Below are positions 13,604 through 46,791 of a stretch of 64,000 nt of DNA, piece after piece (the stretch's first letter is position 1; every line of letters begins with the position of its first letter). The translations under genes and the position numbers were made by a program. The notes beneath the pieces were generated by a model that was given only the letters and a program-made list of their open reading frames with translations, was not told the DNA's origin and ran no database searches. The DNA lies in the IMG/VR virus record IMGVR_UViG_3300013772_000002, positions 40,817-104,816 of that record, one strand, 5' to 3'. The DNA comes from a virus.

Positions 13604-13611
13604 CCCGGTGG

Positions 13612-13641: not shown

Positions 13642-13690
13642 GGTAGAGTATAGTATCGTTTCCCTCCCCATCCATAAAATCTGAGGCGCT

Positions 13691-15751: not shown

Positions 15752-17715
15752 TGCCCCGCGACCCGCGCATGCCAAACATCCCGGCGCCACCTGACTGGGA
15801 CTACCACCAGGGGAAAATCTATCTTCCCCCGACGATTGCCAAGTCAATTAGGGAAGAGAAGAGTGCCGAAGAGAAGGCGATCAAGGGGAAGCTCTTCTCC
15901 AACTGGTCCCGGACAATTACGCGTACCGCCGGCGGCGCCGTTGACCGTTCGCCGAACCGCCCCTCACACGCCCTCCTGAAGTACGTGGCACGTAACTGCA
16001 CGCTGGATTCAGCGATTATCTCGACACTCAAGGCGAACATTTCCGCCTTTACACAAGTCGCCCACGTCGAGGGGAAGCAGATTGGCTTCCGCGTCGTGCA
16101 CAAACGGTACAACGATCCCGCCTGGCAGCCGGACGAGGAGACGTTACACGATATCAATGATCGCTGCCGCCAGATGGAACGCTTGATCCTCAATACGACC
16201 AAGCCCGCCTGCCCTTCGTTCGCCACCTTTATGTCGGCGGCGACCGATGATGAGCTGACAATCGACCGCGCGAACATGGTGATCGTCCCTGACCGCCAGG
16301 GACGTCCCCTTAGTTATCACTATCTTCCCGGCGGGACGCTCTTGCCACGCTTCCTCTATCTCAAAGAGTTCATGGCTCGCTGGGGTAAAGAGGATTCGCT
16401 CTTCTATAATGACGACCGTGCCGCCCAACGTCTTTCCGAGGAGCTGAAACTTAACGGCGTGCGCACTCCCGAGGGGCACGAGATCGACCTGACGCATGCC
16501 GCTTTCGTACAGGTCCTTGATGACAATACCGTCTGTGGCGCTTGGACTGAGAAGCAATTGGCGATTGACATTATCAACCCGATGGTGGAGATCGACCAGA
16601 GTTACTTTGGCACTTCGCCGGTCGAGCAGTCACTCGACGTGAGCTATCTGTGGAACAGTGCCTGGAACTACCAGAAGCAGCTATTCCAAACGACCTGGCC
16701 CGAAGCGATCCTCCTGTTGCACGGCGACTACTCCCCCGAAGGGTTGCAGGGGTTCAAGGACGATGTCCTTGCCTCGCACGGTAACTCTCAACGTCTGCCA
16801 GTGATTTCCGGTGGTCCGAAAGGGGAGACCGACGTCTCGCTCGTTACATTGCGCAATACGCCACAGGACATGCTCTTCGACCAGCTGTTGAAATTCATGC
16901 TCGCGCTGAAGTGCGCCTTTTTTCGCATCCATCCCAGTACGATCAACTTCGCTTCCGAGGGCGCCGCTTCCGATGGCGGTCTGCCCCAAGACCGAAACTA
17001 CATCATCCAGCAGGCCAACGAAGAGGGCAACCGTTCGCGCCTGCGTCGTCGCTTCGGCTGGCTGACCCATCACCTGATCATCCCATGGTACGACGATCTG
17101 ATCGCCATTCCCGAAGGAATGGACATGGTTCCCTTCGAGCAGGTCATTCAACGTGAGATCGAGCTCTCCGGCGCGGGCATCAAGACGAAGAACGAGACGC
17201 GCGCGCAGATCGGTCTTCCGCCCATGCCCGATGGTCTACCTGGCTCCAACCTTGGCGACTGGACTGGATCACAGGTCGATGTCGCGATCGTCGGCGCCAT
17301 CCAGGCTCAGGAAGCGATGAAGCAGCAGCAACAGGCGCAGATGAACCCACAGAATGTCGCCGCACAACAGCCGGGCGCTAGCGGTGGCGACTATGGCGCC
17401 GACCAAGGGATGCCCCAGGGCGGTGCGACCACCCCACCTCCACAGGGTCAACCACCCCAACCCGGCGCCCCGCCGACGGGCGGACCACCCGCGGCGCCGC
17501 CGCCTCCTCCGGCACAAAAGAGTCTCAATCCATTGACGGAAACGGAGGGACATCCCCACCATCGGAAGACACATTACAGTCTTCTCTGGTCGGGTGGCCC
17601 GGTCGTGCCGCGCGGCGGTCTCGGTTCTGCCTACATGGAGGATGACGAGGACGACACTGATGATGGTCCGAATGGTTCGGACGATGATGGAGGCGAGGAT
17701 GGCGACGACGTCTAG
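15751..17715 (+). CDS. Portal protein with a long Q/P-rich and acidic C-terminal tail
   Basis: Follows TerL. YFGTSPVEQ, DMLFDQLLKFMLALKCAFFRIHPSTINF and KTKNETRAQIGLPP are SPO1/Twort-like portal motifs. Confidence 0.9.
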   Translation: MPRDPRMPNIPAPPDWDYHQGKIYLPPTIAKSIREEKSAEEKAIKGKLFSNWSRTITRTAGGAVDRSPNRPSHALLKYVARNCTLDSAIISTLKANISAFTQVAHVEGKQIGFRVVHKRYNDPAWQPDEETLHDINDRCRQMERLILNTTKPACPSFATFMSAATDDELTIDRANMVIVPDRQGRPLSYHYLPGGTLLPRFLYLKEFMARWGKEDSLFYNDDRAAQRLSEELKLNGVRTPEGHEIDLTHAAFVQVLDDNTVCGAWTEKQLAIDIINPMVEIDQSYFGTSPVEQSLDVSYLWNSAWNYQKQLFQTTWPEAILLLHGDYSPEGLQGFKDDVLASHGNSQRLPVISGGPKGETDVSLVTLRNTPQDMLFDQLLKFMLALKCAFFRIHPSTINFASEGAASDGGLPQDRNYIIQQANEEGNRSRLRRRFGWLTHHLIIPWYDDLIAIPEGMDMVPFEQVIQREIELSGAGIKTKNETRAQIGLPPMPDGLPGSNLGDWTGSQVDVAIVGAIQAQEAMKQQQQAQMNPQNVAAQQPGASGGDYGADQGMPQGGATTPPPQGQPPQPGAPPTGGPPAAPPPPPAQKSLNPLTETEGHPHHRKTHYSLLWSGGPVVPRGGLGSAYMEDDEDDTDDGPNGSDDDGGEDGDDV

Positions 17716-17974: not shown

Positions 17975-17978
17975 TCCC

Positions 17979-18461: not shown

Positions 18462-18471
18462 TAGGAGCCAT

Positions 18472-19200: not shown

Positions 19201-20548
19201 TGCACTTGGTCCTGTCCCCACACTTCATCTTGACCACCACGGCTTACCCGTGGCGTTTGGAGACGTGCCAGCGGGGGCATATAGGATCATCACCCTTCTC
19301 GAGGGTCCCCTGACGGGAAAGGACATCCTCATCCGTAAACGCCCCGATAACGCCGTCGATCTCTTTCTCGTCCCCGAGAACAAGATTGGCAAATCCCTGC
19401 GCCTCGATGGTATCGGTCACGAACCTGATCGGGAACCGCTAGAGAAGACCTTTATCGAGCATCTCGGTTCTCACCTTGCCGCCCAATCCGCCGCAAAGAC
19501 CGTCGCTCCGACGCCGCCGCCACAGGCATCGTCAACATGGACGAGTACGAACAAGCCGACACATATAGCGCACGTCTCATTGCCATCAGGACAGACAAAA
19601 TACATCGGTATGCACGGCACTCCCATGCCTGATCTCGAGTCGTATAAGATTGGCAATCCCGCCGATCGTGCCGATGGTTCGATCGGTATCCGTAATGGGC
19701 AGAAGTTGGCGATGACGCCCGTTGAGCGCGCGACCAATCGTGCCTACGGCGTGACGAATCCGACTGCGGACCTCCCCTCCGCCCGGATCGGCACGAATGC
19801 GCAGGAGGCGGTCAGGCGGCGCGTCTCGCATCCTGACTTCCGGATGATCGACGAAACAGGTAAATCGAAGTCGGATCGTTGGGACGACATGGAACGCAAG
19901 GTATTGGCGGGCGGTCTGGTACCGAGCGACCATCCCTATCTCTCACCGCGCGCCTACATGGGCATTGGCCCTGACGGTCATGTCATTCATGTCGCCACCG
20001 CCGCGACGGAAAAGATGCGTCCCGAACTGCCGCAGTCTAGGGGCGAGAGCTATGCGTATGGCGAACATAGTCACAAGAGTACGGGCGACTACCCCGATCG
20101 CGGCCATGCCGACGATTTCCTCCATCATGCGATCTACAACCCCGCCTGGGTGACGATGCAGCGACGACATGGCAAGGACATCATGTACCGTCACGTCTAC
20201 CCGCGCGCGGACGGCAAGAACAGCCAGTTGGAACATGACGCGCCGGGCGGCCTCACGTACGTAATGGAGCGCATCCGTCACCCTAATGACCCAAACGGTA
20301 ATCACTGGAACCTGCAGACCGTGATTACGAACCAGGGTTATAGTCGTCACCACCCAACCCACGATCAATACGTCGCGGAGTCACATCGTCTCGCTGACGA
20401 TAATCGTGGCGCGCGCTATATCCGCAGTAGCGAGAATCCGAATGACCCGGGCGTCCAGGCTGCCGTTGCCGCCAGCGCCAAGCGGTATGAGTACCTCTCA
20501 AACAAGAACTCTCCCAAGATTGCCGATCCAGACACGGGAGGGCGCTAA
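19193..20548 (+). CDS. hypothetical protein with a possible C-terminal PBECR-like RNase
   Basis: IGKSL/LEKTFIEH motifs, a Pro linker, and C-terminal HAIYNPAWV..IMYRHVY..TYVMERI..WNLQTVIT. Confidence 0.6.
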   Translation: MTDALGPVPTLHLDHHGLPVAFGDVPAGAYRIITLLEGPLTGKDILIRKRPDNAVDLFLVPENKIGKSLRLDGIGHEPDREPLEKTFIEHLGSHLAAQSAAKTVAPTPPPQASSTWTSTNKPTHIAHVSLPSGQTKYIGMHGTPMPDLESYKIGNPADRADGSIGIRNGQKLAMTPVERATNRAYGVTNPTADLPSARIGTNAQEAVRRRVSHPDFRMIDETGKSKSDRWDDMERKVLAGGLVPSDHPYLSPRAYMGIGPDGHVIHVATAATEKMRPELPQSRGESYAYGEHSHKSTGDYPDRGHADDFLHHAIYNPAWVTMQRRHGKDIMYRHVYPRADGKNSQLEHDAPGGLTYVMERIRHPNDPNGNHWNLQTVITNQGYSRHHPTHDQYVAESHRLADDNRGARYIRSSENPNDPGVQAAVAASAKRYEYLSNKNSPKIADPDTGGR

Positions 20549-23500
20549 TGCCCGTCACGCCGTCAACAATCCCACCGAACAATGTTCCCGTCCGCCTTGC
20601 CGCTAACGCGGCGCAGGGAACGGCGCCGACGATGGGGCAAATACACGGTATTAGTAATGACCTGAAATTGGTGCCATCTCCGAACGCGGGAAAGACTGAC
20701 CTCACTCCGGGCGTGCCTGGTGGCATGGTGCCGAAACTCGCCCTCAATCTTCCCCAACGTCCACGCATCACGGCTGATCCGGTCGAAGATCAGCCATCAG
20801 CCAATGCATTTCCGGTTGCCGGTGGTGGATCGCCTCCGCCTCCCGCCGGTTCCGCCGTGCATCGTGCGGTTCCCCGGCTCTTCGGCGGACTCAATAACGC
20901 CAATGACCTGCGTCTCGATTACGCCGCCGCCGTTCGTCATCCCGACGGCGACTGGTTCGCGGACGGCGGCTACGCCCCGCCCCGCGTCACCGACGACCCG
21001 CTCGCGAATCGCGCGTACGGCGCTCAGCGCGCCGCCGCCCACACAAGCGTTGCCCAGGGTGCGCCCGCCGCTTGGGTTGGTCCAGACGGCGCGGTCGGTC
21101 ATGGCATCTCGCTCCACGATCGCGAAGGTAACTTGATTGGTCATACAATGCGCCACTATCATGACGACGGCGCCGGTGGTATCGCGACACGCATGCACCC
21201 GATGACCCTCGCTCCAGGGATTAATCCGGCGGTCGCGCACCAGCACGCCCATGCCGAGGATCAATGGCTCAGGGGGCATGGCGTGACACGCAAGGAGCGG
21301 TCGGTCGGCGCCGGGCAAGAAGCACACGACGCGGCGCGCGAGGGCTACGACTTTGCCTCGCCTGCCCAGGGCTACAATGCGACACAGCGCTATCACCGCT
21401 ATCTGATGGAGCGCGGCCATACGCGGGCGATGAACGAGTGGCAAGATCGGTTGGCCGCCGAGGGGCGAGACGCGATGACGCCCAACGAAATCGTCACGCA
21501 CGCTCCCTTCCAGACACAGGTAACACAGCGCGGTGAAAACGGTCATGCCGAGGACTTTCCGACGGTCGGTGCGGGCACTGCCTACATGCTCGAACATCAG
21601 CAGCCCTATGAGGCGGTGCAAGATTTTGATTCGCCCGGCGATCGGATCGGCGTTGCCCAACGCGCCGTGGAAATGAGCAAGTCCCTTGCTCCTCCGCCGA
21701 TGCCGAAGATCGATGTCCATGCGGAGCCGCCGCGTGGCGCTTACCGCATTCCGCCCGTACCGAAACCGGCGCCCGCCCAGCCGAAAGCGGCGGAACCGTG
21801 GCATGGCACCGCTGAACGGGCGGCCGCGACCTGGCGCTCACCGACGCCTGAACCAGAAGGATGGGGCAAACCGAAGCCGCCGCCCGAGTCGGTCACTGGT
21901 CCTGCCGTCCATGGCGCGACTCCCTACGCCAACGTGACGCCAACGCATATTCCCCACGAACCGGATGCCCCGCCGGTCCACCAGATGACCCAGGCGGAAT
22001 TCCTCAAGACTGGCCACCTCCTCTACCCGAGCAGCGAAGATAATGGCTACGGGAACACCGCCCGTATGCGTCTGACGCCGGAGATTGGCGGCAACCTCAA
22101 TCGCTACGCCGAAGAGGTCGGCGGCGCATCAGTACGCGGCAGGCATCGCAAGGCGGGCAACAGCGACCCGACCGGCGGCGGTCGTCCTCCGGAGCACGCG
22201 GCGATCCAGACGGAGCGGCGCGCTGACCTTCGGGCGGCGATGGAGAAGCATGGCGTCCTCTGGCATCACGACGAGCAAGGCAATCCACAACGAATCGACA
22301 ACCTCGACGCCCTGCCCGAGCATATCCACGACAATGGCAACATCTTTGCCTTCCCGCCTGATGCGCCCAAGCAGGACGCGAAGACGGTCTGGGGCAGTGG
22401 CTTCCGCGCCGACCAGGGTCACTCCCCTTACAGCGACGAACCCGATACCAGCGAGGACATGACCGATAGTTATACCGCCGGTCATCACGGTAAAGTCGTC
22501 GACCATAACTTCCTCTTCGACGCCGACGATGACTTCGAGGAGAACGAGCACGAAGGGACACCCAAGAAGCCCGCGCCAGACCCCAAGGTCGTCCTGGCAC
22601 GTCGGGACATGATCGGCAACAATGGCAAGAAAGTCCATGCGAACCTCGTACGCGCGGCCCTCATGCACGGCGACGAGCATGTCCCCGACTCCGTGCTCGC
22701 CGACTATCCGGGGTTGCGCGAGAAAGTCGACGCGGAGCGGCTTGAGAAGTTCCGTCCGCAGATGGAATACAACGCCACCCTCCGCCCCCACCTCGACGAT
22801 TTTGCCGTCAAGGCGCGCAAATTTATCCAGAACAGCGTCGACAAGAAGATGGAAGGGCATCTCGCGGCCGTCAAGCGGGACAAGCCGAATCACATCCCCG
22901 AGTACGGTGATTTCGATACCCATCCCTCTGCCAGTGACCGTCGGCTGGCGGCGTTGGACTATGAGACCGTCGCCCCCTTCGACGTTCCGGATGCCCATGC
23001 GGCGATGGAGTCTTGGCCCAAGGGCGCGCGGGAGCTCCCGAAAGTCGGTCAACTCGCCAAGCACTACGACGCCCATGCCGCGCTGACGCGCCACCATAGT
23101 GGCGCGGACCTCTATCACTACACCGTCTCCCCCGGTCATTTCTCTGACTTCCAGCCGGAGCGCAAGACCGAATACGAACCGGAGACCTCCTCGCGCAACG
23201 CCACCTACCTCGCCGAGACCCCCTTCGGCGCGGCAACCGGCGGCCGGGGTGGCTCGGAGAACCCCGACCCCTACTGGGGGGACGTCCCCCCGGCGCACTC
23301 TAGTCCCCCACCCACACTGCCGCTCGTCGGTCACCCGGAACGCCGGGACTATTCGCATCCCGGCACACGCGTCTTTGCCGTCAAGCATCACGGTCTTCGC
23401 ACCTTGGGCGAGGACATCCCCAAGCATCCGATCGCCAACGAGGCTGAGTGGCATAGCCATCGCGCCCTGATCCGCCGACTGGCAGAGAAGCGCGATGCGA

Positions 23501-26500
23501 TCAAGGACCCGAAGGTACGCGAGCGCGCCAAAGAGCTGATCGAGCAGCATCGCTTGGGTCTGGACGGTCATGTCGATGCGACGCAATTCGCCATGCGCTG
23601 GCACGATGCGGAGAACCCCTTGACGCAGGCCGCGGCAAAGGCGCTCGGCTACAATAACCTGATCGTCGCCGATGAAACGGGTCACTCCTCTGCCGTCATG
23701 GATCAGTCGAAGATCAAGGTTGGGCAGCCCGTCGCCTCGATCTTGCGTGCCTACGAACCCGGCGATCTCGCCAAGACGCTCGTTCATAGTCTCGCACCCA
23801 ACGCCAAAAAGAATGATGAAACCTGGCGCGACCTCGTCACCCTCCGTGAGTTGGGCAAGGATGAACTCGACGAGCACATCGCACGTCACCAGGGCATTAC
23901 CAAGTCAGTGCCAGTCGCCCGACCCGGCACTGCCGCCCAGATACCAACGCCAACTTCACCGCCACATATACCGACACTTCCGACACAAACCGCAACGCCG
24001 ATTCCCAAACACACGTCAACCATCAGTCCGCCCGATGCACCGGGGGAAACGCTAGGTAAGCCCCCGAAAGACGAGAGGTCGATGGCCCAATATCTGAATT
24101 TTAAAGACCTCTATCACGGCACGGGCATGCCTCATTTGGAGCCCTCGATTCTGGATAGTAAAAAAGTTTCAGCAGGCAGTCTCTTTGGTCCCGGTATCTA
24201 TCTGACGGATAATCCGACAGTCGCCCAAGGATATGCGCGTGACTCAGAGGGAAAGACCGGATACGAGTATCCCACCGTCTATCATGGCAAAACGAACCTG
24301 CGCCGCGTCCTCGACCTGGAACAGCCCGCACCCAGACGCGTACGCACGCTCTTTCGCCGTGCCGCTGCAAAAGTGCCAGCGGGACATCACGCGTCATACC
24401 CCGAAGGGCAGATGGCCGATGCGCTGATCGACCCGGCGACAAAGACCGAAGATTTGTATAGGCATCTTTTGAACGCGCACTCATACGTTCCGCATAGCGA
24501 TGCCGACCATCCCTATCGCCAAGTCAACGACGAACTGGCGCGGATGGGCTATGACGGTCTGACGCATATGGGGGGAGGACGGCGGGGCGGTGGTAACATG
24601 CACCGCGTCGCGATCGTCCTCGATCCGCAGGGCAGGAATCGAAAGCGAGTGGCGATCTCGGTGAAAAAACTGATCCCCCAGTTCCAGGGGAATGAAGCGT
24701 CCCCATATCCGAACCTGCAATACGGAGCGGACGCGGTGAAACGGAAGCGGGCATATATCGAAGACCTGCACGAAACCGCACGTGATTTTCGCCAGAGCCC
24801 GGATGTCTGGAGTGTTCCCAGTGGTCAACCACGTTATTTGCGCGAAGCACTTGATGCCGTCAAAACGCGTCACGATCCACACGATACGATGCCGGATGGG
24901 TATGATCCGCGAAGATTACTGGCCCAGCAGGGCGGGATGTACGATTGGGCGCGCAACACCCTTGCTGGCGGGAAGTTGACCGGCAACGACGCTCATTTTC
25001 CCCACGATCACGACCTTCTCTGGGGACATAGCATCGTTGCCGATAAGGGGAAGGGTGGTCCCGAGCAAGCAGAGAATTACGATGCCCATCGTGACGAAAG
25101 CCAAAATGCGCTTAGGCGCGAAGCGCATCCCTGGCTGGCGCAAAGAATCATGGAGGCGGCCAAGCGCGACAAGTGGTTCACGCCACCGGATGAAGAAGCA
25201 ACGAAGACGCTTTCGGGCGGTCTCGCTGATATGCTGCTGAAGGCGCTGGTGCATACACCGTCATCACCGACGCCGCCGTCAATCGACCAGGCGCCGCATT
25301 CCGCCCGCCTGACCGCGCAATATGCCGCTGACCCGACGCAGATGACGCGTGCCCAGTTCCGCGCGCCGCCCCCCGTGGCTCCCGAGGGACGGCGGATGCT
25401 CTACCATGCGGTTCGCGATCCCGCCGTCATTCCCAACATTATCAACGAAGGACTGGACCCGACCCGGGCGCGCAGCGACATGGACGGAGGTAGCAATGTC
25501 ATCTGGTCGGCGGCGTCGCGCACGGGCTACGGACCGGAAGCGCACAAGGTCGCCTTCCATGTTCCCGAAGACGATCGCTCCGTCGAGCGTGCTGGCGGAC
25601 CTGGTGAGGATGCGCACTATCGTGTTACGCGTCCAATCCTCCCACATGAGATCGCACAGGTTGATCGTCCCTACCACACCGCCGTCTCAGGCGGCAATAC
25701 CCTCGGTGCCCAACGCGCGAGTCACTACGCCGATGCCTATCACGAGCACATCATCCAGGAAGCACTCGATCGTGGCGACCCGGTACCGGAGCATGTGCGC
25801 GCGGAGTACCCACACCTCTCTCCACCAGACAAAGAACCGACGACGTGGCGCGATAACGTCAACCTAACCCCTCTCGGTGACGACGAACTCAACGAGCATA
25901 TCGCTCGCCATGCCGAATTGAACAAGTCGATTCCACAAGCGCCACCTGGTACTGCGGCAACGCTGCCGCCTCCGAAGCCGCCCCCGACGACGACGCCCAC
26001 TCCGACCACGCCAATGGTGCCGCGCAAGGTCTCGCCTGCGAAAACCGACTGGCGCTCACTGGAAACGCCGCAGTCCGAGGAGCGAGCGATGGCGCAGCGC
26101 CTCAACCGGACCGACTTCTACCACGGCACGGGGATGCCGCACCTCGAACCGACTAACCTCGACAGTGGCAAGACGAAAGCCTCCGGACTCTACGGACCGG
26201 GCGTCTATATGACCGACAACCCCACCGTCGCTCAGGGATACGCAAAGGACTCAAGGGGCAAGGCGGGCTCCGAGTTCCCGGTCGTCTACCACGGGAAGAC
26301 AAATTTTCGGCGCGTCCTAGATGCCGATCGAGAAGCGCCGCGTCACGTCCGGGATATCTTTCGCAAGGTAGCGAAGCCGTTCACTGACGATGTTGACACT
26401 GACGCCGAGAAGTACGAGACCTTCGACGGGCACCTCAACGATCCCACAACGCCGACGACGAAGCTCTATCGCGCCCTGCGACCGATGATCGAAGACGTCG

Positions 26501-29500
26501 ACGACTACTCCGAGGAAGACCATCCGTTCCGCCAGGTCAATCGCGCACTTGCGAGTCACGGTTACGACGCGATTACCCATCTCGGCGGCGGTATTCGCGG
26601 CAACGTGCGTCACCGGGTCGCGATCGCCCTCGATCCGCAGCGCGAGGATCGCCAACGTCCCGTTTCGCCGATCAAGAAGCTCGAGCCGAAGTTTCAGGAG
26701 GGAGACGCATCGCATTACCCGAATCTGAACTACAGCTCGACGTTACATCAGAAATACCTCGACGAGTTGCATGCGACCGCCCGCGACTTCCGCTACCCTG
26801 GCAGCGCGCCGGACGCGGGGGATGCCACCGATGTAACGGACGCCCTCAGTCGTGTCAAGTACAAACATGACCCCGGAAATACCGCACCAGAGTCGGTCGA
26901 CGATCGCGGCGTGAGCATGACGACCAAGTTGCGGCGTCGTGCGCGACTCTACCATTGGGCGCGGGAGATAGAAGAGCAAGGACACGACGCCGATCTCCCT
27001 TTCGACGATGCCCAGGTGCCGAACGAACACGGCATGCTCTCGGGTCACGGCGTCGTTTCCCACGACAATCCCGACGAAGAGCAAGTACGCGAATACGAGA
27101 ACAAGCGGCAGGAGGGTGATCACTTCCGCGGACAACCGTCCTACCTTCGCATGGGCGCGCATCCTTGGCTTGCCAATCGGATCATGGAGACCGCCAAGCG
27201 CGACAAGTGGTTCGAGCCGCCAAAAGTGGAAGCAACGAAATCCTTCGCCGAACTCTTGCTCAAGACGTTCGTTCATACCCCCTTGACAGCGCCGTCCGGC
27301 CTCAGTGGTCGCTCCTTTGCTACCGTCCTCGTCACGTCACTCGACGGTAACCATGAGATACGCAAGGCGAGCGTCCCCCCGCCCCCCGCGTCCGTGCCGG
27401 CATCGACGGTTGTTGCCCACAACACGAACTGGTTCCGACGACCGTCAGGCGAGACGGGGACGACGGCAACCAAGACCGCAGCAATCAAGGCACAGGGCGG
27501 TCTGACACTCACCGGCAATAATAAGGCGCCGATGACGCAGGAATTCAACCGGCGGCTTGGGCGTGCCCCGGAATCGCTGTTTACGACGCGCACCGGGGAT
27601 AATACGCTCGACACGATGCGCGAGAATGGCATTCGTCCCGAAGCGTCGCTCGCTGAACATGCTGACGCGTTCCGCGATAAACTCTATCTGGGCATACCCC
27701 ATGATACCTACGGTCGGTTGAAGGTCGATGATATGTGGAGCCTGCCGAGTACGCGAGGGGCGTCACAAAACCCCGAGGCGATCGCCTCGGACCGCAGGGT
27801 CTACGAACAGAACCGCCGTCCACTTGCCGCGCACGATGCCTTTCATCGCGGAGTCAACCCAAAACACGGCGGAATCCGTGAGTACAACGAGATTCCAATC
27901 GACCGCACTGCACACCCAAGTGGTCATTTTCCCCTCGATCACCTCGCCTTCGGCCACGACATCGTTGAAGGCGCGCTCGCCGAGGACCCCCAAACGACCG
28001 TCCATGACTACCTTCATAAACATCTCGCGCCCCATCTCGCCGAGCGTTTTGGCTATCAACTCCCCGCCCACGATATCAGTGCTTTGGCCGGACTCGATGA
28101 TTCAGATTTCAGTGGCGTCCAGTACGACTATAACGGGCGCTCTCCACTGCCGATCGATCACTGGGACGGCGAAGAATTGCCACAGGGTATCAAAGACCTG
28201 GGTTGGCATACGCCGCAGGTCGAGAAATCGTTCGCCAAATCTAATGCTGCTCAGACAGGCGTGATGATCGGTCTCTGGGTGCCAAAAGAGGCTGCGGAGA
28301 AGTTGGCGATGCCGGACGGTGAAGAATCTGACGAATTACACATCACGCTCGCCTACCTTGGCAAATTAGGAGAGGACGTCGATCAACAGACAGTCACGCG
28401 TATGACAAATGCCGTCCGTCGTTGGGCAGCAAACCAATCTCCCTTTGTCGGCCATGTCGAGGACGGCGGCCGCTTCCCTGCCTCCGAAGGAAGTGACGGC
28501 AAGGACGTCCTCTTTGCCGTGCCGGAGATCGATGGGTTGCGCGAGGCGCGAACCGATCTCTGTCGACAATTGAAGAAAGCGAAAATAGAGTGGAAGCAGG
28601 ATCACGGATTCACGCCACACATAACCCTCGCCTACGTCGACCAGGGCGGGAAATGGCCTGCGGATGGTCCCGCCGAGACGCAACTGACATTCACACACGT
28701 TACGGTTTGCGCTGGACCTGACCGGACGGCGATCCCCTTCAAGGGTATCGCAAAGGTACATAAAGATGGGGCGATTGGCGAGGGTTGGGGAACCTATAAG
28801 AAAACGGGCGCGGTCAAAGCAGAGAAAATGGATGCCGCTTTCACAGTCGCAACGAAGGAAGGTAAGGCTTCCGGCAAAGCCGGGGATTATCGTGTTACCG
28901 GGATTGATGGCGAACAATGGCCGATCCCTGCCACTGACCTGTCGCGTTTCTATCGCCCAACGAAAGAGGCGGGCGTCTATCGTTCCGTCGGCACACCTGT
29001 GCGAGCAAAGAAGATGACCGAGACATTCACTGTCAAGATTGACAATGGAGAACAATTGCACGGTAAGATAGGCGATTATCTCATCGAGGGTAAGGATGGT
29101 GCGCGCTGGGTTGTTGACTCCCATATCTTTGCGCGCACGTACGAAGCCGTCACGGGCGTGTCGCTGGCAAAGACGCTGATCCACGCCATGTCTGGATCGT
29201 CCACCCCCGCCGTTCAAAGGTCACCAACCACACCGATCGCCGCACCCGCACCCGCAATGTCGCCGAAGGCGGAGAACGTTAACTATGCATCTCTTCCCAA
29301 GGAACACCCTTTCTGGGAGGGGAGCGACGATCATCTCTACCACTCCACTCCCGCAGATAACCTGCCGAGTATTGCGCGCCACGGTCTGCATACGAACATC
29401 CCATTCAATGACTACGAGGACGACGAGAACCCGGACGCACCAGGTGCGTGGCCGGAGGGCGGGAGTGAGCCGCGAACCTACTTCGGTGATAGCCCCCGTA

Positions 29501-31461
29501 ATGCGGACGAGTACGGAGGAGGGAATAACGCGATGCTGCGCGTACCATATGATCACGTCAGCGCGCGGGATCACGGGAGCGACTATTCCGGAACCTACGC
29601 GCGCGAGGATATCCCGGCTAAGCACGTCGAGTATTACGGCGATGGCGCTTGGAAACCGATGGAACACCATCCCTCCCTCGCCGAAACGGAGAAATCACTC
29701 GCCAAGGCGACGACCTTCTCACTAAAGAATCTGCCGCCCGCCAAGCCGATTCATCACTACCGCCATCGCACCGATAGCGGGCACGAGCATCTCGGCGTCG
29801 TACCGACCGGCACACCTCATGGCGCGGGCGAACGACCCGAGCACGCTTCACCTGCCTGGCGACTGGCGACGACCGGACATGTCGATTTCTCTGGTACGAA
29901 CCATCAGGATCATCCCCGTCACCACCACACGCTGCTGCCGATTTACCAGGGAGAGCAGGGGCGGCACGACCTTCTCACTCACCATCGCTTCGCGGCGCAT
30001 ACCCGTCGCGCGCACGAACAGGGCGAGACGAAGGGATACTGGGATGAGTTGCCGGGACCCGAGGATGTGCCGACCTATGGTGACCGCGAGCACGCGGAAC
30101 ATGCCCTGGCGCATTACCGTCAAGCACGCGATACCGCCAAGCACGTGCATCATGCCGCCGATGGTGACGCGCGCCATGCCGACGCTGCCGGAAAATGGCA
30201 ACACTACGTCAGCGACCTCTCTGCCCTCCACCACAAACTGACGGGCAAGCATCCTGAACTGGACCTTCTCGAAGGCGATGTCAAGCGGATGCAGCGCGTT
30301 CACCAAATGCTGACATCAATGACCCCTGCCGATCTGGCGCGTGACGCGACAGCGGGCGTCCTTCCCCAGCCGGGCACGACTTTTCACCTGCACGCCGATC
30401 GGTCCGCTTTCGACGACGGTGACGTGGAAGCGCTCGACATGGCTGATAGCGCGATGGCCGGACTCGCTGATGAGATTGGGCGCGCCATCCCAACGGGAAT
30501 GCCGCTCGATGCTCGCAAGGGAGAGCGCGTCCGTACCGCGCGTCGCGCCTGGTTGCAACTGGCGCGAGATTTGAAGCGCCAGAGCGCGCTTCGTCACCAT
30601 GTCGCGGATACCGGACGCGCGCCACACGAGTCACTTTGGCACGATCTCGAAACGCCAGGTTCAGGAACGCCCTTTTACCGCCTTTCCCAAGGAGCGCTCA
30701 ATCGCAACGTCGATCGCCTCTTGCCCCAGCGTCGCCAACAGGATGCCGAACGCGCCTTGGGCATGACGTTCGCGCAGTTCGTCGCGGAGAAAATGCGCGA
30801 TACCGGAACGCAGGCGCCGCCCGAATTGGCGTCGATGAAACTGATTCAGTACTGCGACAAGATGCGCCCTGTCCATGGTGGCTCGCTCGATCAGTTGCGA
30901 CAAATACTCGCCCAGGGCGCTTTCGATATTCTTGGCACACAAGATCGCTCGGGCATCTCACACGCGACGCTCTCCGGCGATGAGGAAGCGTCCGGATTGG
31001 AGAACGCGGTTTTCCTCCAGGACGGTCCGCCCCATGGCGACCCGGAGTATATTGCCGTCTTTCACCCGCGCGTTCTCAGCCTCCACGGCGCGGTTGCGAT
31101 CCCGATCAATCATGTCTCGCTCGATTCCGGAAAGACTCTTCCACTCGATAACTTGCTCGTTTCTTGCGCCGACCGAGCCATTCGTGGTAAGATTATGATA
31201 GCCCTTGGCATTATGCCTGCTATTCTCGCCGGGCGCTGGGACGACCTCACCTCCGGCGCTTGGGCCGATCACGCGGGTTTGTGGTATGCCTTCCCCTTCG
31301 GCATCGCCCTCTCTGACATCACCCACTTGATTCTCGCACCCGGCACGGACGCTGACCGGGTTGCCGATATTACGCGACACGCTCATGCCGCCTCCCACAC
31401 CATTGAAGTAACGACGGGTCGCTACGCGGACGTCGTGACGCTGACCGCGGAGCGCAAGTGA
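20548..31461 (+). CDS. Giant (3637 aa) polyvalent protein: several ART-fold-like domains, a 2H phosphoesterase and tandem PGDYG-like domains
   Basis: Uninterrupted ORF after GGGAGG. Motifs: YHGTG..GPG(I/V)Y(L/M)TDNP..GYD (twice); LYHAV..NIINEGL; LYHST..SIARHGL; HITLAY twice; GDY(R/L) repeats. Confidence 0.85.
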   Translation: MPVTPSTIPPNNVPVRLAANAAQGTAPTMGQIHGISNDLKLVPSPNAGKTDLTPGVPGGMVPKLALNLPQRPRITADPVEDQPSANAFPVAGGGSPPPPAGSAVHRAVPRLFGGLNNANDLRLDYAAAVRHPDGDWFADGGYAPPRVTDDPLANRAYGAQRAAAHTSVAQGAPAAWVGPDGAVGHGISLHDREGNLIGHTMRHYHDDGAGGIATRMHPMTLAPGINPAVAHQHAHAEDQWLRGHGVTRKERSVGAGQEAHDAAREGYDFASPAQGYNATQRYHRYLMERGHTRAMNEWQDRLAAEGRDAMTPNEIVTHAPFQTQVTQRGENGHAEDFPTVGAGTAYMLEHQQPYEAVQDFDSPGDRIGVAQRAVEMSKSLAPPPMPKIDVHAEPPRGAYRIPPVPKPAPAQPKAAEPWHGTAERAAATWRSPTPEPEGWGKPKPPPESVTGPAVHGATPYANVTPTHIPHEPDAPPVHQMTQAEFLKTGHLLYPSSEDNGYGNTARMRLTPEIGGNLNRYAEEVGGASVRGRHRKAGNSDPTGGGRPPEHAAIQTERRADLRAAMEKHGVLWHHDEQGNPQRIDNLDALPEHIHDNGNIFAFPPDAPKQDAKTVWGSGFRADQGHSPYSDEPDTSEDMTDSYTAGHHGKVVDHNFLFDADDDFEENEHEGTPKKPAPDPKVVLARRDMIGNNGKKVHANLVRAALMHGDEHVPDSVLADYPGLREKVDAERLEKFRPQMEYNATLRPHLDDFAVKARKFIQNSVDKKMEGHLAAVKRDKPNHIPEYGDFDTHPSASDRRLAALDYETVAPFDVPDAHAAMESWPKGARELPKVGQLAKHYDAHAALTRHHSGADLYHYTVSPGHFSDFQPERKTEYEPETSSRNATYLAETPFGAATGGRGGSENPDPYWGDVPPAHSSPPPTLPLVGHPERRDYSHPGTRVFAVKHHGLRTLGEDIPKHPIANEAEWHSHRALIRRLAEKRDAIKDPKVRERAKELIEQHRLGLDGHVDATQFAMRWHDAENPLTQAAAKALGYNNLIVADETGHSSAVMDQSKIKVGQPVASILRAYEPGDLAKTLVHSLAPNAKKNDETWRDLVTLRELGKDELDEHIARHQGITKSVPVARPGTAAQIPTPTSPPHIPTLPTQTATPIPKHTSTISPPDAPGETLGKPPKDERSMAQYLNFKDLYHGTGMPHLEPSILDSKKVSAGSLFGPGIYLTDNPTVAQGYARDSEGKTGYEYPTVYHGKTNLRRVLDLEQPAPRRVRTLFRRAAAKVPAGHHASYPEGQMADALIDPATKTEDLYRHLLNAHSYVPHSDADHPYRQVNDELARMGYDGLTHMGGGRRGGGNMHRVAIVLDPQGRNRKRVAISVKKLIPQFQGNEASPYPNLQYGADAVKRKRAYIEDLHETARDFRQSPDVWSVPSGQPRYLREALDAVKTRHDPHDTMPDGYDPRRLLAQQGGMYDWARNTLAGGKLTGNDAHFPHDHDLLWGHSIVADKGKGGPEQAENYDAHRDESQNALRREAHPWLAQRIMEAAKRDKWFTPPDEEATKTLSGGLADMLLKALVHTPSSPTPPSIDQAPHSARLTAQYAADPTQMTRAQFRAPPPVAPEGRRMLYHAVRDPAVIPNIINEGLDPTRARSDMDGGSNVIWSAASRTGYGPEAHKVAFHVPEDDRSVERAGGPGEDAHYRVTRPILPHEIAQVDRPYHTAVSGGNTLGAQRASHYADAYHEHIIQEALDRGDPVPEHVRAEYPHLSPPDKEPTTWRDNVNLTPLGDDELNEHIARHAELNKSIPQAPPGTAATLPPPKPPPTTTPTPTTPMVPRKVSPAKTDWRSLETPQSEERAMAQRLNRTDFYHGTGMPHLEPTNLDSGKTKASGLYGPGVYMTDNPTVAQGYAKDSRGKAGSEFPVVYHGKTNFRRVLDADREAPRHVRDIFRKVAKPFTDDVDTDAEKYETFDGHLNDPTTPTTKLYRALRPMIEDVDDYSEEDHPFRQVNRALASHGYDAITHLGGGIRGNVRHRVAIALDPQREDRQRPVSPIKKLEPKFQEGDASHYPNLNYSSTLHQKYLDELHATARDFRYPGSAPDAGDATDVTDALSRVKYKHDPGNTAPESVDDRGVSMTTKLRRRARLYHWAREIEEQGHDADLPFDDAQVPNEHGMLSGHGVVSHDNPDEEQVREYENKRQEGDHFRGQPSYLRMGAHPWLANRIMETAKRDKWFEPPKVEATKSFAELLLKTFVHTPLTAPSGLSGRSFATVLVTSLDGNHEIRKASVPPPPASVPASTVVAHNTNWFRRPSGETGTTATKTAAIKAQGGLTLTGNNKAPMTQEFNRRLGRAPESLFTTRTGDNTLDTMRENGIRPEASLAEHADAFRDKLYLGIPHDTYGRLKVDDMWSLPSTRGASQNPEAIASDRRVYEQNRRPLAAHDAFHRGVNPKHGGIREYNEIPIDRTAHPSGHFPLDHLAFGHDIVEGALAEDPQTTVHDYLHKHLAPHLAERFGYQLPAHDISALAGLDDSDFSGVQYDYNGRSPLPIDHWDGEELPQGIKDLGWHTPQVEKSFAKSNAAQTGVMIGLWVPKEAAEKLAMPDGEESDELHITLAYLGKLGEDVDQQTVTRMTNAVRRWAANQSPFVGHVEDGGRFPASEGSDGKDVLFAVPEIDGLREARTDLCRQLKKAKIEWKQDHGFTPHITLAYVDQGGKWPADGPAETQLTFTHVTVCAGPDRTAIPFKGIAKVHKDGAIGEGWGTYKKTGAVKAEKMDAAFTVATKEGKASGKAGDYRVTGIDGEQWPIPATDLSRFYRPTKEAGVYRSVGTPVRAKKMTETFTVKIDNGEQLHGKIGDYLIEGKDGARWVVDSHIFARTYEAVTGVSLAKTLIHAMSGSSTPAVQRSPTTPIAAPAPAMSPKAENVNYASLPKEHPFWEGSDDHLYHSTPADNLPSIARHGLHTNIPFNDYEDDENPDAPGAWPEGGSEPRTYFGDSPRNADEYGGGNNAMLRVPYDHVSARDHGSDYSGTYAREDIPAKHVEYYGDGAWKPMEHHPSLAETEKSLAKATTFSLKNLPPAKPIHHYRHRTDSGHEHLGVVPTGTPHGAGERPEHASPAWRLATTGHVDFSGTNHQDHPRHHHTLLPIYQGEQGRHDLLTHHRFAAHTRRAHEQGETKGYWDELPGPEDVPTYGDREHAEHALAHYRQARDTAKHVHHAADGDARHADAAGKWQHYVSDLSALHHKLTGKHPELDLLEGDVKRMQRVHQMLTSMTPADLARDATAGVLPQPGTTFHLHADRSAFDDGDVEALDMADSAMAGLADEIGRAIPTGMPLDARKGERVRTARRAWLQLARDLKRQSALRHHVADTGRAPHESLWHDLETPGSGTPFYRLSQGALNRNVDRLLPQRRQQDAERALGMTFAQFVAEKMRDTGTQAPPELASMKLIQYCDKMRPVHGGSLDQLRQILAQGAFDILGTQDRSGISHATLSGDEEASGLENAVFLQDGPPHGDPEYIAVFHPRVLSLHGAVAIPINHVSLDSGKTLPLDNLLVSCADRAIRGKIMIALGIMPAILAGRWDDLTSGAWADHAGLWYAFPFGIALSDITHLILAPGTDADRVADITRHAHAASHTIEVTTGRYADVVTLTAERK
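23821..27212 (+). repeat. Diverged internal duplication (~1.36 kb units at ~23821-25180 and ~25843-27212)
   Basis: Both units run from TWRD..DEL.EHIARH through YHGTGMPHLEP and TDNPTVAQGYA to AHPWLA.RIME.AKRDKWF. Confidence 0.9.
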
Positions 31462-31781
31462 TCCCGTTTGACGAGAAAACATCATTGACTGATTTGAGGG
31501 AGCTTTACCCGGACCCCCCTCATAATTTGGTGGTATCTTCGCCGCCCTTAATACATCATGGCTACTTTCTCGGTCACGCGACGGTTTGTGTTCCCGCTCT
31601 CAAAGAATGCCTGGAGATCGCGAAGAAACGCGGCGACCAGGCCGCCGTCGCGCACCTACGCGCCCATGCTCAGGCATATGCCAAGTGGAAGAAAGAGCGC
31701 ACCGATGCGCGCTCAGTCCAGGAGTCGGCAACGCGCCGCTCCACCGGACCACGCCCCCAAACGATGCCGTCTGGCATCTAG
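31458..31781 (+). CDS. hypothetical protein
   Basis: GTGA overlap with the stop of the giant gene; 107 aa. Confidence 0.55.
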   Translation: MIPFDEKTSLTDLRELYPDPPHNLVVSSPPLIHHGYFLGHATVCVPALKECLEIAKKRGDQAAVAHLRAHAQAYAKWKKERTDARSVQESATRRSTGPRPQTMPSGI

Positions 31782-31807
31782 TCCCGCATTCCCGCAGCGA
31801 GGTTTGA

Positions 31808-41090: not shown

Positions 41091-41133
41091 ACGGTGGCGA
41101 TTGAGCCACCGTCACTTATGTTTGGGAGCGATC

Positions 41134-44606: not shown

Positions 44607-44766
44607 ACACCCCGATCGACCGAGGTAGAAAACCGGGCACTATTACACCCACCGCGTAGCGGTCGGTGATTGATGCGGGAACTGCTCGACCCGCCGGAAC
44701 GATCCCCCTTCGTACAACCTACGTGCCCATTACGGGGCCAGAAGCACCTCCGGGGTGTTTTTTGGC
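44607..44766 (+). ncRNA. candidate structured RNA or attenuator leader
   Basis: Non-coding stretch between the promoters and a terminator-like hairpin (44737-44766), with several nested stems. Confidence 0.35.
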
Positions 44767-44784
44767 TTGCGTTCCCGGAGACCC

Positions 44785-45681: not shown

Positions 45682-45698
45682 TCGGAGGCGACACTTCC

Positions 45699-46652: not shown

Positions 46653-46791
46653 TCCCCCCGCCCCTACCGCGGACTCCCCATCCGCTTCCCCTTCCGGCGG
46701 GTGCCCCTCACCCGCCCCCCTCGATCCCCCTTGACGGCGCCTCGCGCCCCTCGATGACCCCACAGGCATGTTTCCCAGGAGGACCCCTTCC

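What the first reader, a model, noticed from the sequence alone, without database searches (positions are those of the whole stretch)
20548..31461. Giant cargo polyprotein punctuated by capsid-protease-type sites: a candidate virion-packaged enzyme arsenal
SEEN: domain boundaries in the 3637-aa protein carry a recurring x-x-K-(S/T/A) motif, usually with a hydrophobic residue at -2 or +2 and often followed by a Pro/Thr/Ser linker. Lys codon positions are MSK|SL 21679, LAK|TLVH 23773, ITK|SV 23902, ATK|TL 25204, LLK|ALVH 25240, LNK|SI 25924, ATK|SF 27238, LLK|TFVH 27262, IRK|AS 27364, VEK|SFAK|S 28225/28237, LAK|TLIH 29170 and TEK|SLAK|A 29692/29704. The same motif sits at the predicted mature N-terminus of the MCP (FAK|TFSS, 46897) and throughout the scaffold. 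KNOWN: A511/Twort-type capsid precursors are cut after Lys at a K|S site, and T4 and phiKZ head proteases process internal head proteins. INFERENCE: the prohead protease cuts this protein in the head into about 10 separate enzymes (ART-like, 2H phosphoesterase, PGDYG-like) that are injected with the DNA.
Basis: partly seen in the sequence, partly recalled or inferred. Interest (0 to 1): 0.92.

Follow-up and report, generated by a model that had tools for sequence, protein, structure and literature searches.

The report
Phage polyvalent protein with protease-site joints
An uncultured soil phage encodes a 400-kDa chain of ADP-ribosyltransferase-like and phosphoesterase modules next to its head genes, and the joints between modules carry the same short lysine motif at which its capsid protein is probably trimmed, so the head protease may cut the chain into separate injected enzymes, though no cutting or packaging has been measured.

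Summary
The ORF (20548-31461, 3637 aa) and all 14 listed Lys codons are exactly as described. The motif as written, x-x-K-(S/T/A), is not above chance. 26% of the protein's Lys residues are followed by S/T/A, against 22% in non-virion proteins. 27 further matches went unlisted, 12 of them inside mapped folds, and three listed pairs are paralogous copies.

A tighter rule, K-[ST]-[LF], taken from the capsid, protease and scaffold proteins, is enriched:
- 9 sites against 1.6 in shuffles.
- 5.7% of Lys, against 2.0% in non-virion proteins and 1.9% in 106 homologous proteins.
- No site lies in a mapped fold core, and several lie exactly at module borders.

The capsid site K44|T45 aligns with the K24|S25 maturation site of a staphylococcal myovirus capsid protein. 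The protease is the SPO1/Herelleviridae type.

The protein is a polyvalent protein (Iyer et al. 2017). Its 2H domain's nearest relatives are fused to portals, head proteases and capsid proteins.

Packaging and cutting by the prohead protease are plausible (about 0.5) but unproven. No orthologue exists to test conservation. Earlier notes of this scan describe the same theme in at least eight other phages. I class it as a new variant of a known kind.

The parts
20548..31461 (+). Giant ORF of 3637 aa (399.5 kDa), a polyvalent protein. It is translationally coupled to the upstream 455-aa ORF (TAATG) and to the downstream 107-aa ORF.
20548..21681 (+). aa 1-378: N-terminal region of unknown function. 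It ends at MSK378|SL, followed by a Pro-rich linker (382-476).
   Evidence: no family match
21682..23775 (+). aa 379-1076: unknown module, ART-PolyVal-like only as a language-model lead (score 0.88). It ends at LAK1076|TLVH.
23776..23904 (+). aa 1077-1119: a 43-aa element conserved in both repeats (copy 2 is at aa 1751-1793). In copy 1 it is bounded by K1076 and ITK1119|SV.
23905..25242 (+). aa 1120-1565: Pro/Thr linker, ART-PolyVal core (about 1147-1367) and a helical-looking tail. It ends in the double site ATK1553|TL and LLK1565|ALVH.
25243..25926 (+). aa 1566-1793: domain X (core about 1592-1763), which has stand-alone homologues of 159-191 aa. It ends at LNK1793|SI, followed by a Pro-rich linker.
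25927..27264 (+). aa 1794-2239: second ART-PolyVal module, a paralogue of 1120-1565 at 50% identity. It ends in ATK2231|SF and LLK2239|TFVH.
27265..28239 (+). aa 2240-2564: linker with IRK2273|AS, then an unknown module (2274-2560), ending in the double site VEK2560|SFAK2564|S.
28240..29172 (+). aa 2565-2875: 2H (LigT-type) phosphoesterase with two HxTL motifs, confidently folded from 2568 to 2736, then a PGDYG region (2742-2869). It ends at LAK2875|TLIH.
29173..29694 (+). aa 2876-3049: Ser/Pro linker and a small module with a weak DUF7002 match. It ends in TEK3049|SLAK3053|A.
29707..31458 (+). aa 3054-3637: His-rich stretch and a C-terminal domain of unknown fold. OspC/DUF3626-like is only a weak lead (0.79). 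There is no similarity to the prohead protease. It holds one unlisted tight-motif match, K3529|TL.
15751..17715 (+). Portal protein. The island that holds the giant gene starts just downstream.
44755..45681 (+). Prohead protease of the SPO1/Herelleviridae type (catalytic part about aa 20-207). Its C-terminal part has NDK180|TF, FAK187|SLNH and IAK196|TFSS. After those sites comes a copy of the mature MCP N-arm (40 aa, 75% identical, with many synonymous differences).
45648..46652 (+). Scaffold-like protein. 10 of its 27 Lys are followed by S/T/A (MRK|SL, ITK|TI, LQK|SM, LEK|SL and others).
46768..48300 (+). Major capsid protein. The predicted maturation site EFAK44|T45FSS has its Lys codon at 46897-46899.

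Best explanation
**What it is.** The ORF is a phage polyvalent protein, a single 400-kDa chain of effector modules. The modules are two clear ART-PolyVal domains, a 2H phosphoesterase with a PGDYG region, and four or five further modules. Some of the further modules look ART-like.

**Where it sits.** It is encoded in a 27-kb island of about a dozen same-strand ORFs. The island lies between the portal gene and the protease-scaffold-MCP genes of an SPO1-like head module.

**Most likely mechanism.**
1. The chain is made late and built into the prohead.
2. The prohead protease trims the capsid protein after Lys44 (K|TF) and presumably degrades the scaffold at K|[ST]-hydrophobic sites.
3. The same protease cuts the chain at the same kind of site: K|[ST][LF], with Leu/Phe/Ala at P3 and often His at P4'.
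4. This yields eight or nine folded pieces of 19-77 kDa and several short peptides.
5. The pieces leave the head with the DNA and act on host targets by ADP-ribosylation and by 2H phosphoesterase action on RNA ends or cyclic nucleotides.

**Shown versus inferred.**
- Shown: the domain content, the gene position, the protease family, the homology of the MCP site to a known maturation site, the enrichment and placement of the motif, and the head-protein fusions of related 2H domains.
- Inferred: packaging, cutting, which sites are used, ejection and targets.
For: **Identity**
- ART-PolyVal scores 35.8 bits against a cut-off of 31.2. PGDYG, LigT and 2_5_RNA_ligase2 also score above their cut-offs.
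- ART homologues sit in 1000-3100-aa proteins that carry LPD38, M15 and SLT domains.

**Cutting rule**
- MCP K44|T45 aligns with K24|S25 of the phage 812-type MCP, and a deposited chain begins at S25.
- The protease is 31-38% identical to SPO1 gp3.2 and to proteases in 643 phage records in all.
- SPO1 control: 14 of 22 scaffold Lys are followed by S/T/A, and the protease tail echoes the MCP N-arm after a K|S site.
- This phage's protease has the same echo, kept at the protein level.

**Motif in the giant protein**
- K[ST][LF] occurs 9 times against 1.6 in shuffles.
- It follows 5.7% of Lys, against 2.0% in non-virion proteins (p=0.016).
- The pooled rate in 106 homologues is 1.9% (p=0.003).
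- The 7-mer occurs four times here and once in the protease, and nowhere else in the proteome or in 149 homologues.
- Synonymous codons differ between the copies, so they are not recent DNA copies.

**Placement**
- None of the 9 tight sites is in a mapped core (p=0.034).
- K2560/K2564 lie just before the 2H fold.
- K2875 lies just after PGDYG.
- K1565 and K2239 lie at the end of the repeat, in its best-conserved stretch.
- 5 of 13 Pro-rich linkers have a site no more than 18 aa upstream, where about 1 is expected.

**Location in the head**
- The gene lies between portal and protease, which are contiguous in SPO1.
- Related 2H domains occur in other phages fused to head proteins:
  - 2H-protease-MCP in one protein (P0153).
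  - portal-2H (P0154, P0156).
  - 2H-protease-like proteins next to the portal and MuF genes in Arthrobacter and Microbacterium phages.

**Precedents**
- T4 Alt and polyvalent proteins (PMC5512222).
- A 2811-aa polyvalent protein found in phi24B virions (bioRxiv 10.64898/2026.04.10.717836).
Against: - There is no experimental or expression evidence of any kind.
- Enrichment of the tight motif per Lys is only about threefold, with p of 0.003-0.04 depending on the control. The pattern was also refined after looking at the data.
- Three site pairs are paralogous.
- Domain borders are mapped for only about a quarter of the protein. AF2 failed on the rest (pLDDT 34), so most sites cannot be placed relative to folds.
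- The other large island proteins are not enriched.
- No common targeting signal was found.
- No orthologue shows conservation.
- Known prohead-protease processing of ejection proteins in SPN3US removes N-terminal propeptides only (PMC10052503).
- The N4 virion RNA polymerase, a polyvalent-type protein, is packaged uncut (PMC5512222).
Confidence: 0.5

Rival explanations
1. The chain is packaged and ejected but not cut. It enters the head and the host as one 400-kDa protein, like the N4 virion RNA polymerase. On this reading the recurring L-x-K-[TA]-[LF]-[VI]-H and E-K-S-[FL]-A-K peptides are docking or spacer elements, for example short strands that bind the capsid interior or the scaffold as the MCP N-arm does. 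They are not scissile sites.
For: - The protease carries an uncut-looking echo of the MCP N-arm, which suggests that such peptides can act as docking elements.
- N4 vRNAP is packaged unprocessed (PMC5512222).
- phi24B gp47 is reported in virions without mention of processing (bioRxiv 10.64898/2026.04.10.717836).
Against: - The motif shares the exact P1/P1'/P2' residues of the homology-supported MCP cleavage site.
- It often comes as double sites 4-12 residues apart, as in the protease tail. That suits redundancy of cutting better than docking.
- It sits next to flexible Pro-rich linkers, where a protease has access.
Confidence: 0.2
2. The protein is not a virion protein. On this reading it is made in the infected cell and works there whole, or is cut by a host or other protease. 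Its position among head genes reflects only where a mobile island landed.
For: - The island also holds clearly non-structural genes: a DNA methyltransferase and a UvsX-like recombinase at 41101-43101.
- No capsid-targeting tag, MuF domain or portal-binding domain was detected.
- The island's other large proteins lack the motif enrichment.
Against: - The 455-aa, giant and 107-aa ORFs are joined by overlapping stop and start codons (TAATG upstream of the giant), and the island's ORFs lie on the same strand downstream of the terminase and portal genes.
- Related 2H domains are covalently fused to portal, protease and MCP in other phages.
- ART-PolyVal proteins as a class are predicted capsid cargo (PMC5512222).
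- An effector arsenal against host defences is most useful at the moment of entry.
Confidence: 0.17
3. The motif is a by-product. On this reading a few chance K-S/T-L/F matches, module duplication and a reader's eye for patterns produced an apparent code with no function.
For: - The loose motif is at background level, and 27 matches were left unlisted.
- Three pairs are paralogous.
- p-values for the tight motif are modest (0.003-0.04) and the pattern was chosen after inspection.
- Non-virion proteins also exceed the shuffle expectation slightly.
Against: - The tight pattern was defined from proteins other than the giant one (MCP and protease) and then tested on it.
- The 7-mer recurs at three independent places and in the protease, with an expectation near zero.
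- Only 1 of 106 homologous proteins shows as high a rate.
- The copies differ at synonymous positions.
- The sites avoid mapped cores and coincide with three homology-defined borders.
Confidence: 0.13

Closest known systems
Polyvalent proteins of phages and conjugative elements (Iyer, Burroughs, Anand, de Souza, Aravind 2017, PMC5512222)
   Same: - It is a giant single polypeptide that strings unrelated conflict domains together.
- The ART-PolyVal signature domain is present above the Pfam cut-off.
- It is encoded in a phage with a portal-terminase system.
- The class is predicted to be packaged and delivered with the DNA. The paper already proposes release of domains by proteolysis and notes assemblin-like (prohead-type) peptidases fused at the C-terminus of some members.
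   Different: - No embedded peptidase was found here.
- Instead the joints carry the site motif of the phage's separate prohead protease, which implies cutting in trans by the capsid maturation enzyme.
- I found no paper that describes such reiterated MCP-type sites at module joints.
T4 Alt and internal proteins IPI-III, packaged through a capsid targeting sequence and trimmed by the gp21 prohead protease (as summarised in PMC5512222 and PMC9026906)
   Same: An ADP-ribosyltransferase is carried in the head, processed by the prohead protease and injected with the DNA.
   Different: - T4 cargo are separate small or medium proteins. Each has one N-terminal targeting peptide that is removed at an L/I-x-E site.
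- Here there would be one 400-kDa chain with many internal K|[ST][LF] sites.
- No shared N-terminal tag was detected.
phiKZ/SPN3US ejection and inner-body proteins cleaved by the prohead protease (PMC10052503, PMC7411985)
   Same: The prohead protease processes many head-internal proteins that are later ejected, and a short sequence motif defines its sites.
   Different: - In SPN3US all identified cleavages, apart from the protease's own, remove N-terminal propeptides.
- Its motif ends in Glu.
- The substrates are many separate gene products, not a polyprotein.
Herelleviridae head maturation (SPO1 gp3.2 protease, gp3.3 scaffold and gp6.1 MCP; staphylococcal phage 812/K MCP, PDB 5lii and 9row)
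   Same: - The protease (31-38% identity) and MCP (24-26% identity) are homologous.
- The MCP cut position after Lys is the same.
- The scaffold is rich in K|S-hydrophobic motifs.
- The protease tail echoes the MCP N-arm.
   Different: In SPO1 the portal, protease, scaffold and MCP genes are contiguous, with no cargo island. No polyprotein substrate is known to me in that family (from memory).
2H phosphoesterase fused to head proteins (phrog_14859; Arthrobacter phage Edmundo gp18, Microbacterium phage ValentiniPuff gp7; metagenomic P0153, P0154, P0156)
   Same: The 2H clade is the same (31-37% identity). In those phages it is tethered to head-interior proteins, in one case upstream of a prohead protease and MCP in a single chain.
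   Different: In those phages the 2H domain is fused directly to a structural or protease protein. Here it is one module of a free-standing effector chain.

Membership tests
Polyvalent proteins (Iyer et al. 2017) | Two or more unrelated effector or enzymatic domains in one very large polypeptide | tested here: met
   ART-PolyVal twice, 2H/LigT, PGDYG and a separate domain X in 3637 aa
Polyvalent proteins (Iyer et al. 2017) | Signature domains of the class (ART-PolyVal PF18760 and LPD-type domains in relatives) | tested here: met
   PF18760 scores 35.8 bits against a cut-off of 31.2. Homologues carry LPD38, M15 and SLT.
Polyvalent proteins (Iyer et al. 2017) | Encoded by a phage, prophage or conjugative element with a portal-terminase system | tested here: met
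   The genome is a 104.8-kb phage contig with portal, protease, scaffold, MCP and tail genes.
Polyvalent proteins (Iyer et al. 2017) | Delivered into the recipient cell with the DNA | not testable with these tools
   This needs virion proteomics or infection assays.
Substrates of the Herelleviridae-type prohead protease | The phage encodes a protease of this family | tested here: met
   phrog_1028 at E=5e-26. tblastn gives 31-38% identity to SPO1 gp3.2 and to proteases in 643 phage records in all.
Substrates of the Herelleviridae-type prohead protease | Site of the type hydrophobic-x-K|S/T/A-hydrophobic, as at the MCP maturation site | tested here: met
   MCP K44|T45 aligns with K24|S25 of the phage 812-type MCP. 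The giant protein has 9 K[ST][LF] sites, and 4 carry the extended 7-mer also found in the protease.
Substrates of the Herelleviridae-type prohead protease | Sites lie in accessible, unfolded segments | tested here: inconclusive
   None of the 9 sites is in a mapped core. Three lie at homology-defined borders, and K2560/K2564 lie in the low-confidence lead-in to the 2H fold. About 75% of the protein has no mapped fold, and single-sequence AF2 failed.
Substrates of the Herelleviridae-type prohead protease | Actually cleaved in proheads | not testable with these tools
   No proteomic data exist. The phage is known only from metagenomic sequence.
T4-type CTS cargo (Alt, IPI-III) | A shared short N-terminal capsid-targeting sequence that ends in a protease site | tested here: not met
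   All-against-all BLASTP of the proteome finds no shared N-terminal segment among the island proteins or with the scaffold. The first tight site is at residue 378.
Polyvalent proteins with an embedded or C-terminal assemblin-like peptidase | A peptidase domain within the chain | tested here: not met
   No peptidase family was found in Pfam, NCBIfam or PHROGs. The C-terminal 584 aa show no similarity to the phage's own protease.

The most novel reading that the evidence does not exclude
The capsid maturation protease doubles as a polyprotein maturase. On this reading, one 400-kDa precursor is loaded into the prohead and cut at reiterated copies of the capsid protein's own maturation site. Each virion then delivers a fixed, equimolar set of eight or nine anti-host enzymes. 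Modules can be added or swapped by evolution simply by keeping a K|[ST][LF] joint. This would be a bacteriophage counterpart of RNA-virus polyprotein processing that uses the head as the reaction vessel. It may be general, since notes of this scan report analogous joints with other protease codes in other phages.
Probability: 0.4. Interest if true: 0.8.

Novelty: new variant of a known kind. Interest (0 to 1): 0.6.

Why it matters
**If the joints are real cut sites**
- Polyvalent proteins would have a maturation route that needs no peptidase of their own.
- The specificity of a prohead protease would become a readable code. That code would predict which phage proteins are head cargo and where their functional units begin and end.
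- Unknown giant phage proteins could then be split directly into expressible enzymes.
- It would also explain how a phage can deliver several ADP-ribosyltransferase-like enzymes and a 2H phosphoesterase at the instant of infection, before any phage gene is expressed.

**Limits**
- The general idea of packaged multi-enzyme proteins is already published.
- The evidence for cutting here is statistical and comparative only.

Tried and rejected
1. **Full-length relatives.** A word-indexed search over residues 1-3637 found none. A 100% identical 931-aa fragment (P0003) is the same protein.
2. **Related phages.**
   - The MCP has no relative in viral contigs.
   - The portal has one relative, 59% identical, on a 3-kb contig.
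   - The ART-module profile found nothing in viral contigs.
   - In metagenome contigs it found one locus, L004. That locus shares only the ART core and no other gene with this phage.
   - Conservation of the joints in orthologues therefore could not be tested.
3. **Megablast and tblastn against isolated phages.** There was no DNA match and no match to the ART module.
4. **AF2 of aa 2225-3080 from a single sequence.** Mean pLDDT was 33.9, so it was not used.
5. **Fold of the protease and of domain X from solved-structure sequences.** Nothing significant was found.
6. **An embedded peptidase, or a C-terminal assemblin-like domain as in some polyvalent proteins.** None was found.
7. **A shared capsid-targeting tag among island proteins.** None was found.
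8. **Promoter and terminator scans of 13000-32500.** Results were at shuffle level.
9. **Pfam on the 455-, 1405- and 1047-aa island proteins in pieces.** There were no usable matches.
10. **Language-model look-alikes.** Scores were below 0.9, so I kept them as leads only.
11. **The idea that the tight motif is part of the conserved ART family.** Rejected, because none of 149 homologues has it.
12. **The idea that the motif copies are recent DNA duplications.** Rejected, because their codons differ at synonymous positions.
Full report
**1. The observation**

The window is the right 64 kb of a single 104,816-bp phage contig. The ORF at 20548-31461 (+) is uninterrupted and encodes 3637 aa, 399.5 kDa. 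It has a GGGAGG ribosome-binding site, and its ATG overlaps the stop of the upstream 455-aa ORF as TAATG. The MCP context FAK|TFSS at 46897 is also correct.

**2. Is it more than chance?**

*As written, no.*
- K followed by S/T/A accounts for 41 of 157 Lys (26.1%). The figure is 22.1% in 17,262 aa of non-virion proteins of the same genome (Fisher p=0.17).
Of the other 27, 12 lie inside fold cores mapped by homology, including the invariant VYHGK|TN of both ART cores.
- Residues 1053-1571 and 1737-2245 are a duplication at 45-50% identity. Three of the listed pairs are therefore single observations.

*In a tighter form, yes.* I took the pattern from proteins other than the giant one: MCP K|TF, and protease K|TF twice and K|SL. 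I then tested K-[ST]-[LF].
- The giant protein has 9 against 1.6 in composition shuffles.
- The protease, scaffold and MCP together have 7 against 0.9.
- The remaining 27,879 aa have 21 against 12.9.
- Per Lys the rates are 5.7% (giant), 12.3% (three head proteins), 2.0% (non-virion) and 1.2% (other island proteins). Giant against non-virion gives p=0.016, or 0.036 after removing one paralogous site.
- As a class-matched control I used 106 homologous large polyvalent proteins from the representatives search. Their pooled rate is 1.9% of 12,637 Lys, and only one reaches 5.7%. The binomial p is 0.003.
- An extended form, [LF][AL]K[STA][LF]xH, occurs at 1076, 1565, 2239 and 2875. It occurs once more in the whole proteome, at FAK187|SLNH in the protease tail. 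The shuffle expectation is about 0, and it is absent from 149 homologues.
- A second form is the double site E-K|S-[FL]-A-K|, at 2560/2564 and 3049/3053. It resembles NDK|TFADFAK|S in the protease.
- Codons differ at synonymous positions among the copies.

**3. The cutting rule**

- The MCP is a distant SPO1/Kayvirus-type capsid protein.
- In the alignment to solved chains, K44|T45 falls exactly on K24|S25 of the staphylococcal myovirus MCP (5lii). A second deposit of the same protein (9row, 439 residues) begins at S25, which is the mature N-terminus. SPO1 gp6.1 has LNK|ALEAG at the same place.
- The protease is 31-38% identical over residues 20-207 to SPO1 gp3.2 and to the proteases of staphylococcal, Listeria, Enterococcus and Bacillus myoviruses. 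There are 643 matching phage records.
- As a control I read the SPO1 head genes. In its scaffold 14 of 22 Lys are followed by S/T/A, nearly all as K|S followed by L/I/F/V. Its protease tail carries LDK|SLEAGYEVDP, an echo of the MCP's LNK|ALEAGHTVNP.
- This phage shows the same two traits. Its scaffold has 10 of 27 Lys followed by S/T/A. A 40-aa stretch of its protease tail is 75% identical to the MCP around and after the cut site, with many synonymous differences.
- So K|S/T-hydrophobic is a credible specificity for this protease family. That rests on one homology-anchored site and on pattern, not on biochemistry for this phage.

**4. What the protein is**

- Pfam and PHROGs give ART-PolyVal twice, a 2H/LigT phosphoesterase with both HxTL motifs, and PGDYG.
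- A full HMMER search with aa 1053-2252 found 543 relatives. The ART core maps to about 1147-1367 and 1794-2058. A further domain X maps to about 1592-1763 and also exists as stand-alone proteins of 159-191 aa.
- The ART relatives are themselves 1000-3100-aa proteins with LPD38, M15 and SLT domains.
- This is the polyvalent-protein class of Iyer et al. 2017 (PMC5512222). That paper already predicts capsid packaging, release of domains by peptidases, and prohead-type (assemblin-like) peptidases fused to some members.
- Language-model look-alikes suggest that aa 480-1076 is also ART-PolyVal-like (0.88) and that the C-terminal domain is OspC/DUF3626-like (0.79). Both are leads only.
- No peptidase is embedded in the chain.

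**5. Placement of the sites**

- None of the 9 tight sites lies in a mapped core, whereas 31% of all Lys do (p=0.034).
- K2560/K2564 precede the 2H domain. Giant residue 2565 corresponds to about residue 13 of a protein whose 2H domain is N-terminal.
- An AF2 model built with a six-sequence alignment folds residues 2568-2736 with pLDDT 71-91. The two Lys lie in the low-confidence lead-in, 7-11 residues before the first strand.
- K2875 is 6-10 residues past the PGDYG match.
- K1565 and K2239 are 6 residues before the end of the duplicated module. They sit in its best-conserved stretch, which reads AHPWLA.RIME.AKRDKWF.PP..EATK...LLK..VHTP.
- K1793 is the first residue before the Pro-rich linker of ART module 2.
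- Five of 13 Pro-rich segments have a K[STA][LFIVM] site no more than 18 aa upstream, where about one is expected.
- The predicted large pieces are 40, 77, 48, 25, 49, 32, 34, 19 and 64 kDa.
- For three quarters of the protein, however, no fold is mapped. Single-sequence AF2 was useless there (pLDDT 34).

**6. Is it in the head?**

- In SPO1 the portal, protease, scaffold and MCP genes are contiguous. Here a 27-kb same-strand island of about a dozen ORFs lies between the portal and the protease.
- The strongest independent hint came from the 2H domain. Its nearest relatives in 5.8 billion proteins are fusions with head proteins:
  - P0153: 2H (17-181), prohead protease (212-496) and MCP (586-902).
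  - P0154: portal followed by 2H.
  - P0156: Mu-type portal followed by 2H.
- In isolated actinophages, the best-matching PHROG family (phrog_14859) is a 2H domain joined to a protease-like C-terminal domain. It is encoded directly after the portal and MuF genes, as in Arthrobacter phage Edmundo gp18 and Microbacterium phage ValentiniPuff gp7.
- A 2811-aa polyvalent protein has been found by proteomics in phi24B virions.
- Against this: the island also holds a methyltransferase and a UvsX-like recombinase. No targeting tag is shared among the island proteins. The other large island proteins are not enriched in the motif.

**7. Mechanism and rivals**

- Most likely (about 0.5): the chain is a late-made polyvalent precursor that is built into the prohead. 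The prohead protease cuts it at K|[ST][LF] joints into eight or nine effector modules, which are ejected with the DNA.
- Rivals:
  - packaged but uncut, with the peptides serving as docking or spacer elements (0.2);
  - not a virion protein (0.17);
  - motif without function (0.13).
- Known prohead-protease processing of ejection proteins in SPN3US removes only N-terminal propeptides. Polyprotein-style cutting would therefore be a real extension.

**8. Novelty**

- The class, the idea of packaging and the idea of proteolytic release are all published.
- What I did not find in the papers I read is the use of reiterated copies of the capsid protein's own maturation site as module joints, read in trans by the prohead protease.
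- Earlier notes of this scan describe the same theme, with other protease codes, in at least eight other phage genomes. Those are unchecked AI notes and are not counted as evidence here. If they hold, this case is one instance of a recurring pattern rather than a singleton.
- Verdict: observation partly confirmed, reading partly supported, a new variant of a known kind.

Noticed in passing
window 45304-45423 (protease aa 184-223) versus 46861-46980 (MCP aa 32-71); L003 8977-9747 and 10511-11917 (SPO1): The prohead protease tail carries a 40-aa stretch that is 75% identical to the MCP around and after its cut site, with many synonymous differences. SPO1 shows the same echo (protease LDK|SLEAGYEVDP, MCP LNK|ALEAGHTVNP). 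It looks like a family trait, perhaps the way the protease docks into the shell and is then released.
   Followed up: partly
L003 9747-10481 (SPO1 scaffold gp3.3): 14 of the 22 Lys in the SPO1 scaffold are followed by S/T/A, nearly all as K|S followed by L/I/F/V. This is a very dense array of putative protease sites and a useful positive control for the K|S rule.
   Followed up: partly
P0153, P0154, P0156; L001 4842-5954 (Arthrobacter phage Edmundo gp18); L002 4830-6002 (Microbacterium phage ValentiniPuff gp7): 2H phosphoesterase domains related to the one here are fused to portal proteins, to prohead proteases and, in one chain, to protease and MCP. phrog_14859, named 'RNA ligase', is really a 2H domain joined to a protease-like domain and is encoded after the portal and MuF genes. 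This suggests a widespread head-carried 2H enzyme.
   Followed up: partly
window 15751-17715 (portal): The portal has a cluster of Lys sites near its N-terminus (IAK31|SIREEK37|SAEEK42|AI). It also has AQK590|SLNP after a long Pro/Gln-rich tail and before an acidic C-terminus. The SPO1 portal has similar N-terminal K|A and K|S sites. The portal may also be trimmed.
   Followed up: no
window 19181-20548 (455-aa ORF): The ORF just upstream, translationally coupled to the giant gene, has IGK71|SL, LEK89|TFIEH and AAK106|TVAPTPPPQ ahead of a Pro-rich linker. This is the same grammar as the giant protein's joints. No family match was found.
   Followed up: partly
window 36036-39179 (1047-aa ORF), C-terminal about 60 aa: By eye, the C-terminus has an ILDGRHRY motif like the DGxHR box of ParB/sulfiredoxin-type domains, which occur in polyvalent proteins. 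Pfam gave no match even at E=1, so this is unverified.
   Followed up: partly
window 23776-23904 and 25798-25926 (giant aa 1077-1119 and 1751-1793): A conserved element of about 43 aa (W-R-D..V.L...G.DEL.EHIARH....K|S) precedes the Pro-rich linker of each ART module. In copy 1 it is flanked by motif sites on both sides. Its function is unknown.
   Followed up: no
P0017 (1627-aa ART-PolyVal homologue from the representatives search): This is the only homologue with a higher K[ST][LF] rate (7 of 85 Lys). Six of the seven sites read G-K|[ST]-[LF]. It may be a different joint code in another element. Its context was not fetched.
   Followed up: no
window 31808-36025 and 36036-39179: The two further large ORFs of the island (1405 and 1047 aa) are rich in Pro/Ala/Glu/Gln low-complexity stretches and match no family. 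Motif-like sites lie only near their ends (LLAAK1391|SM, 14 aa from the C-terminus of the first; SLIK36|AA near the N-terminus of the second).
   Followed up: partly
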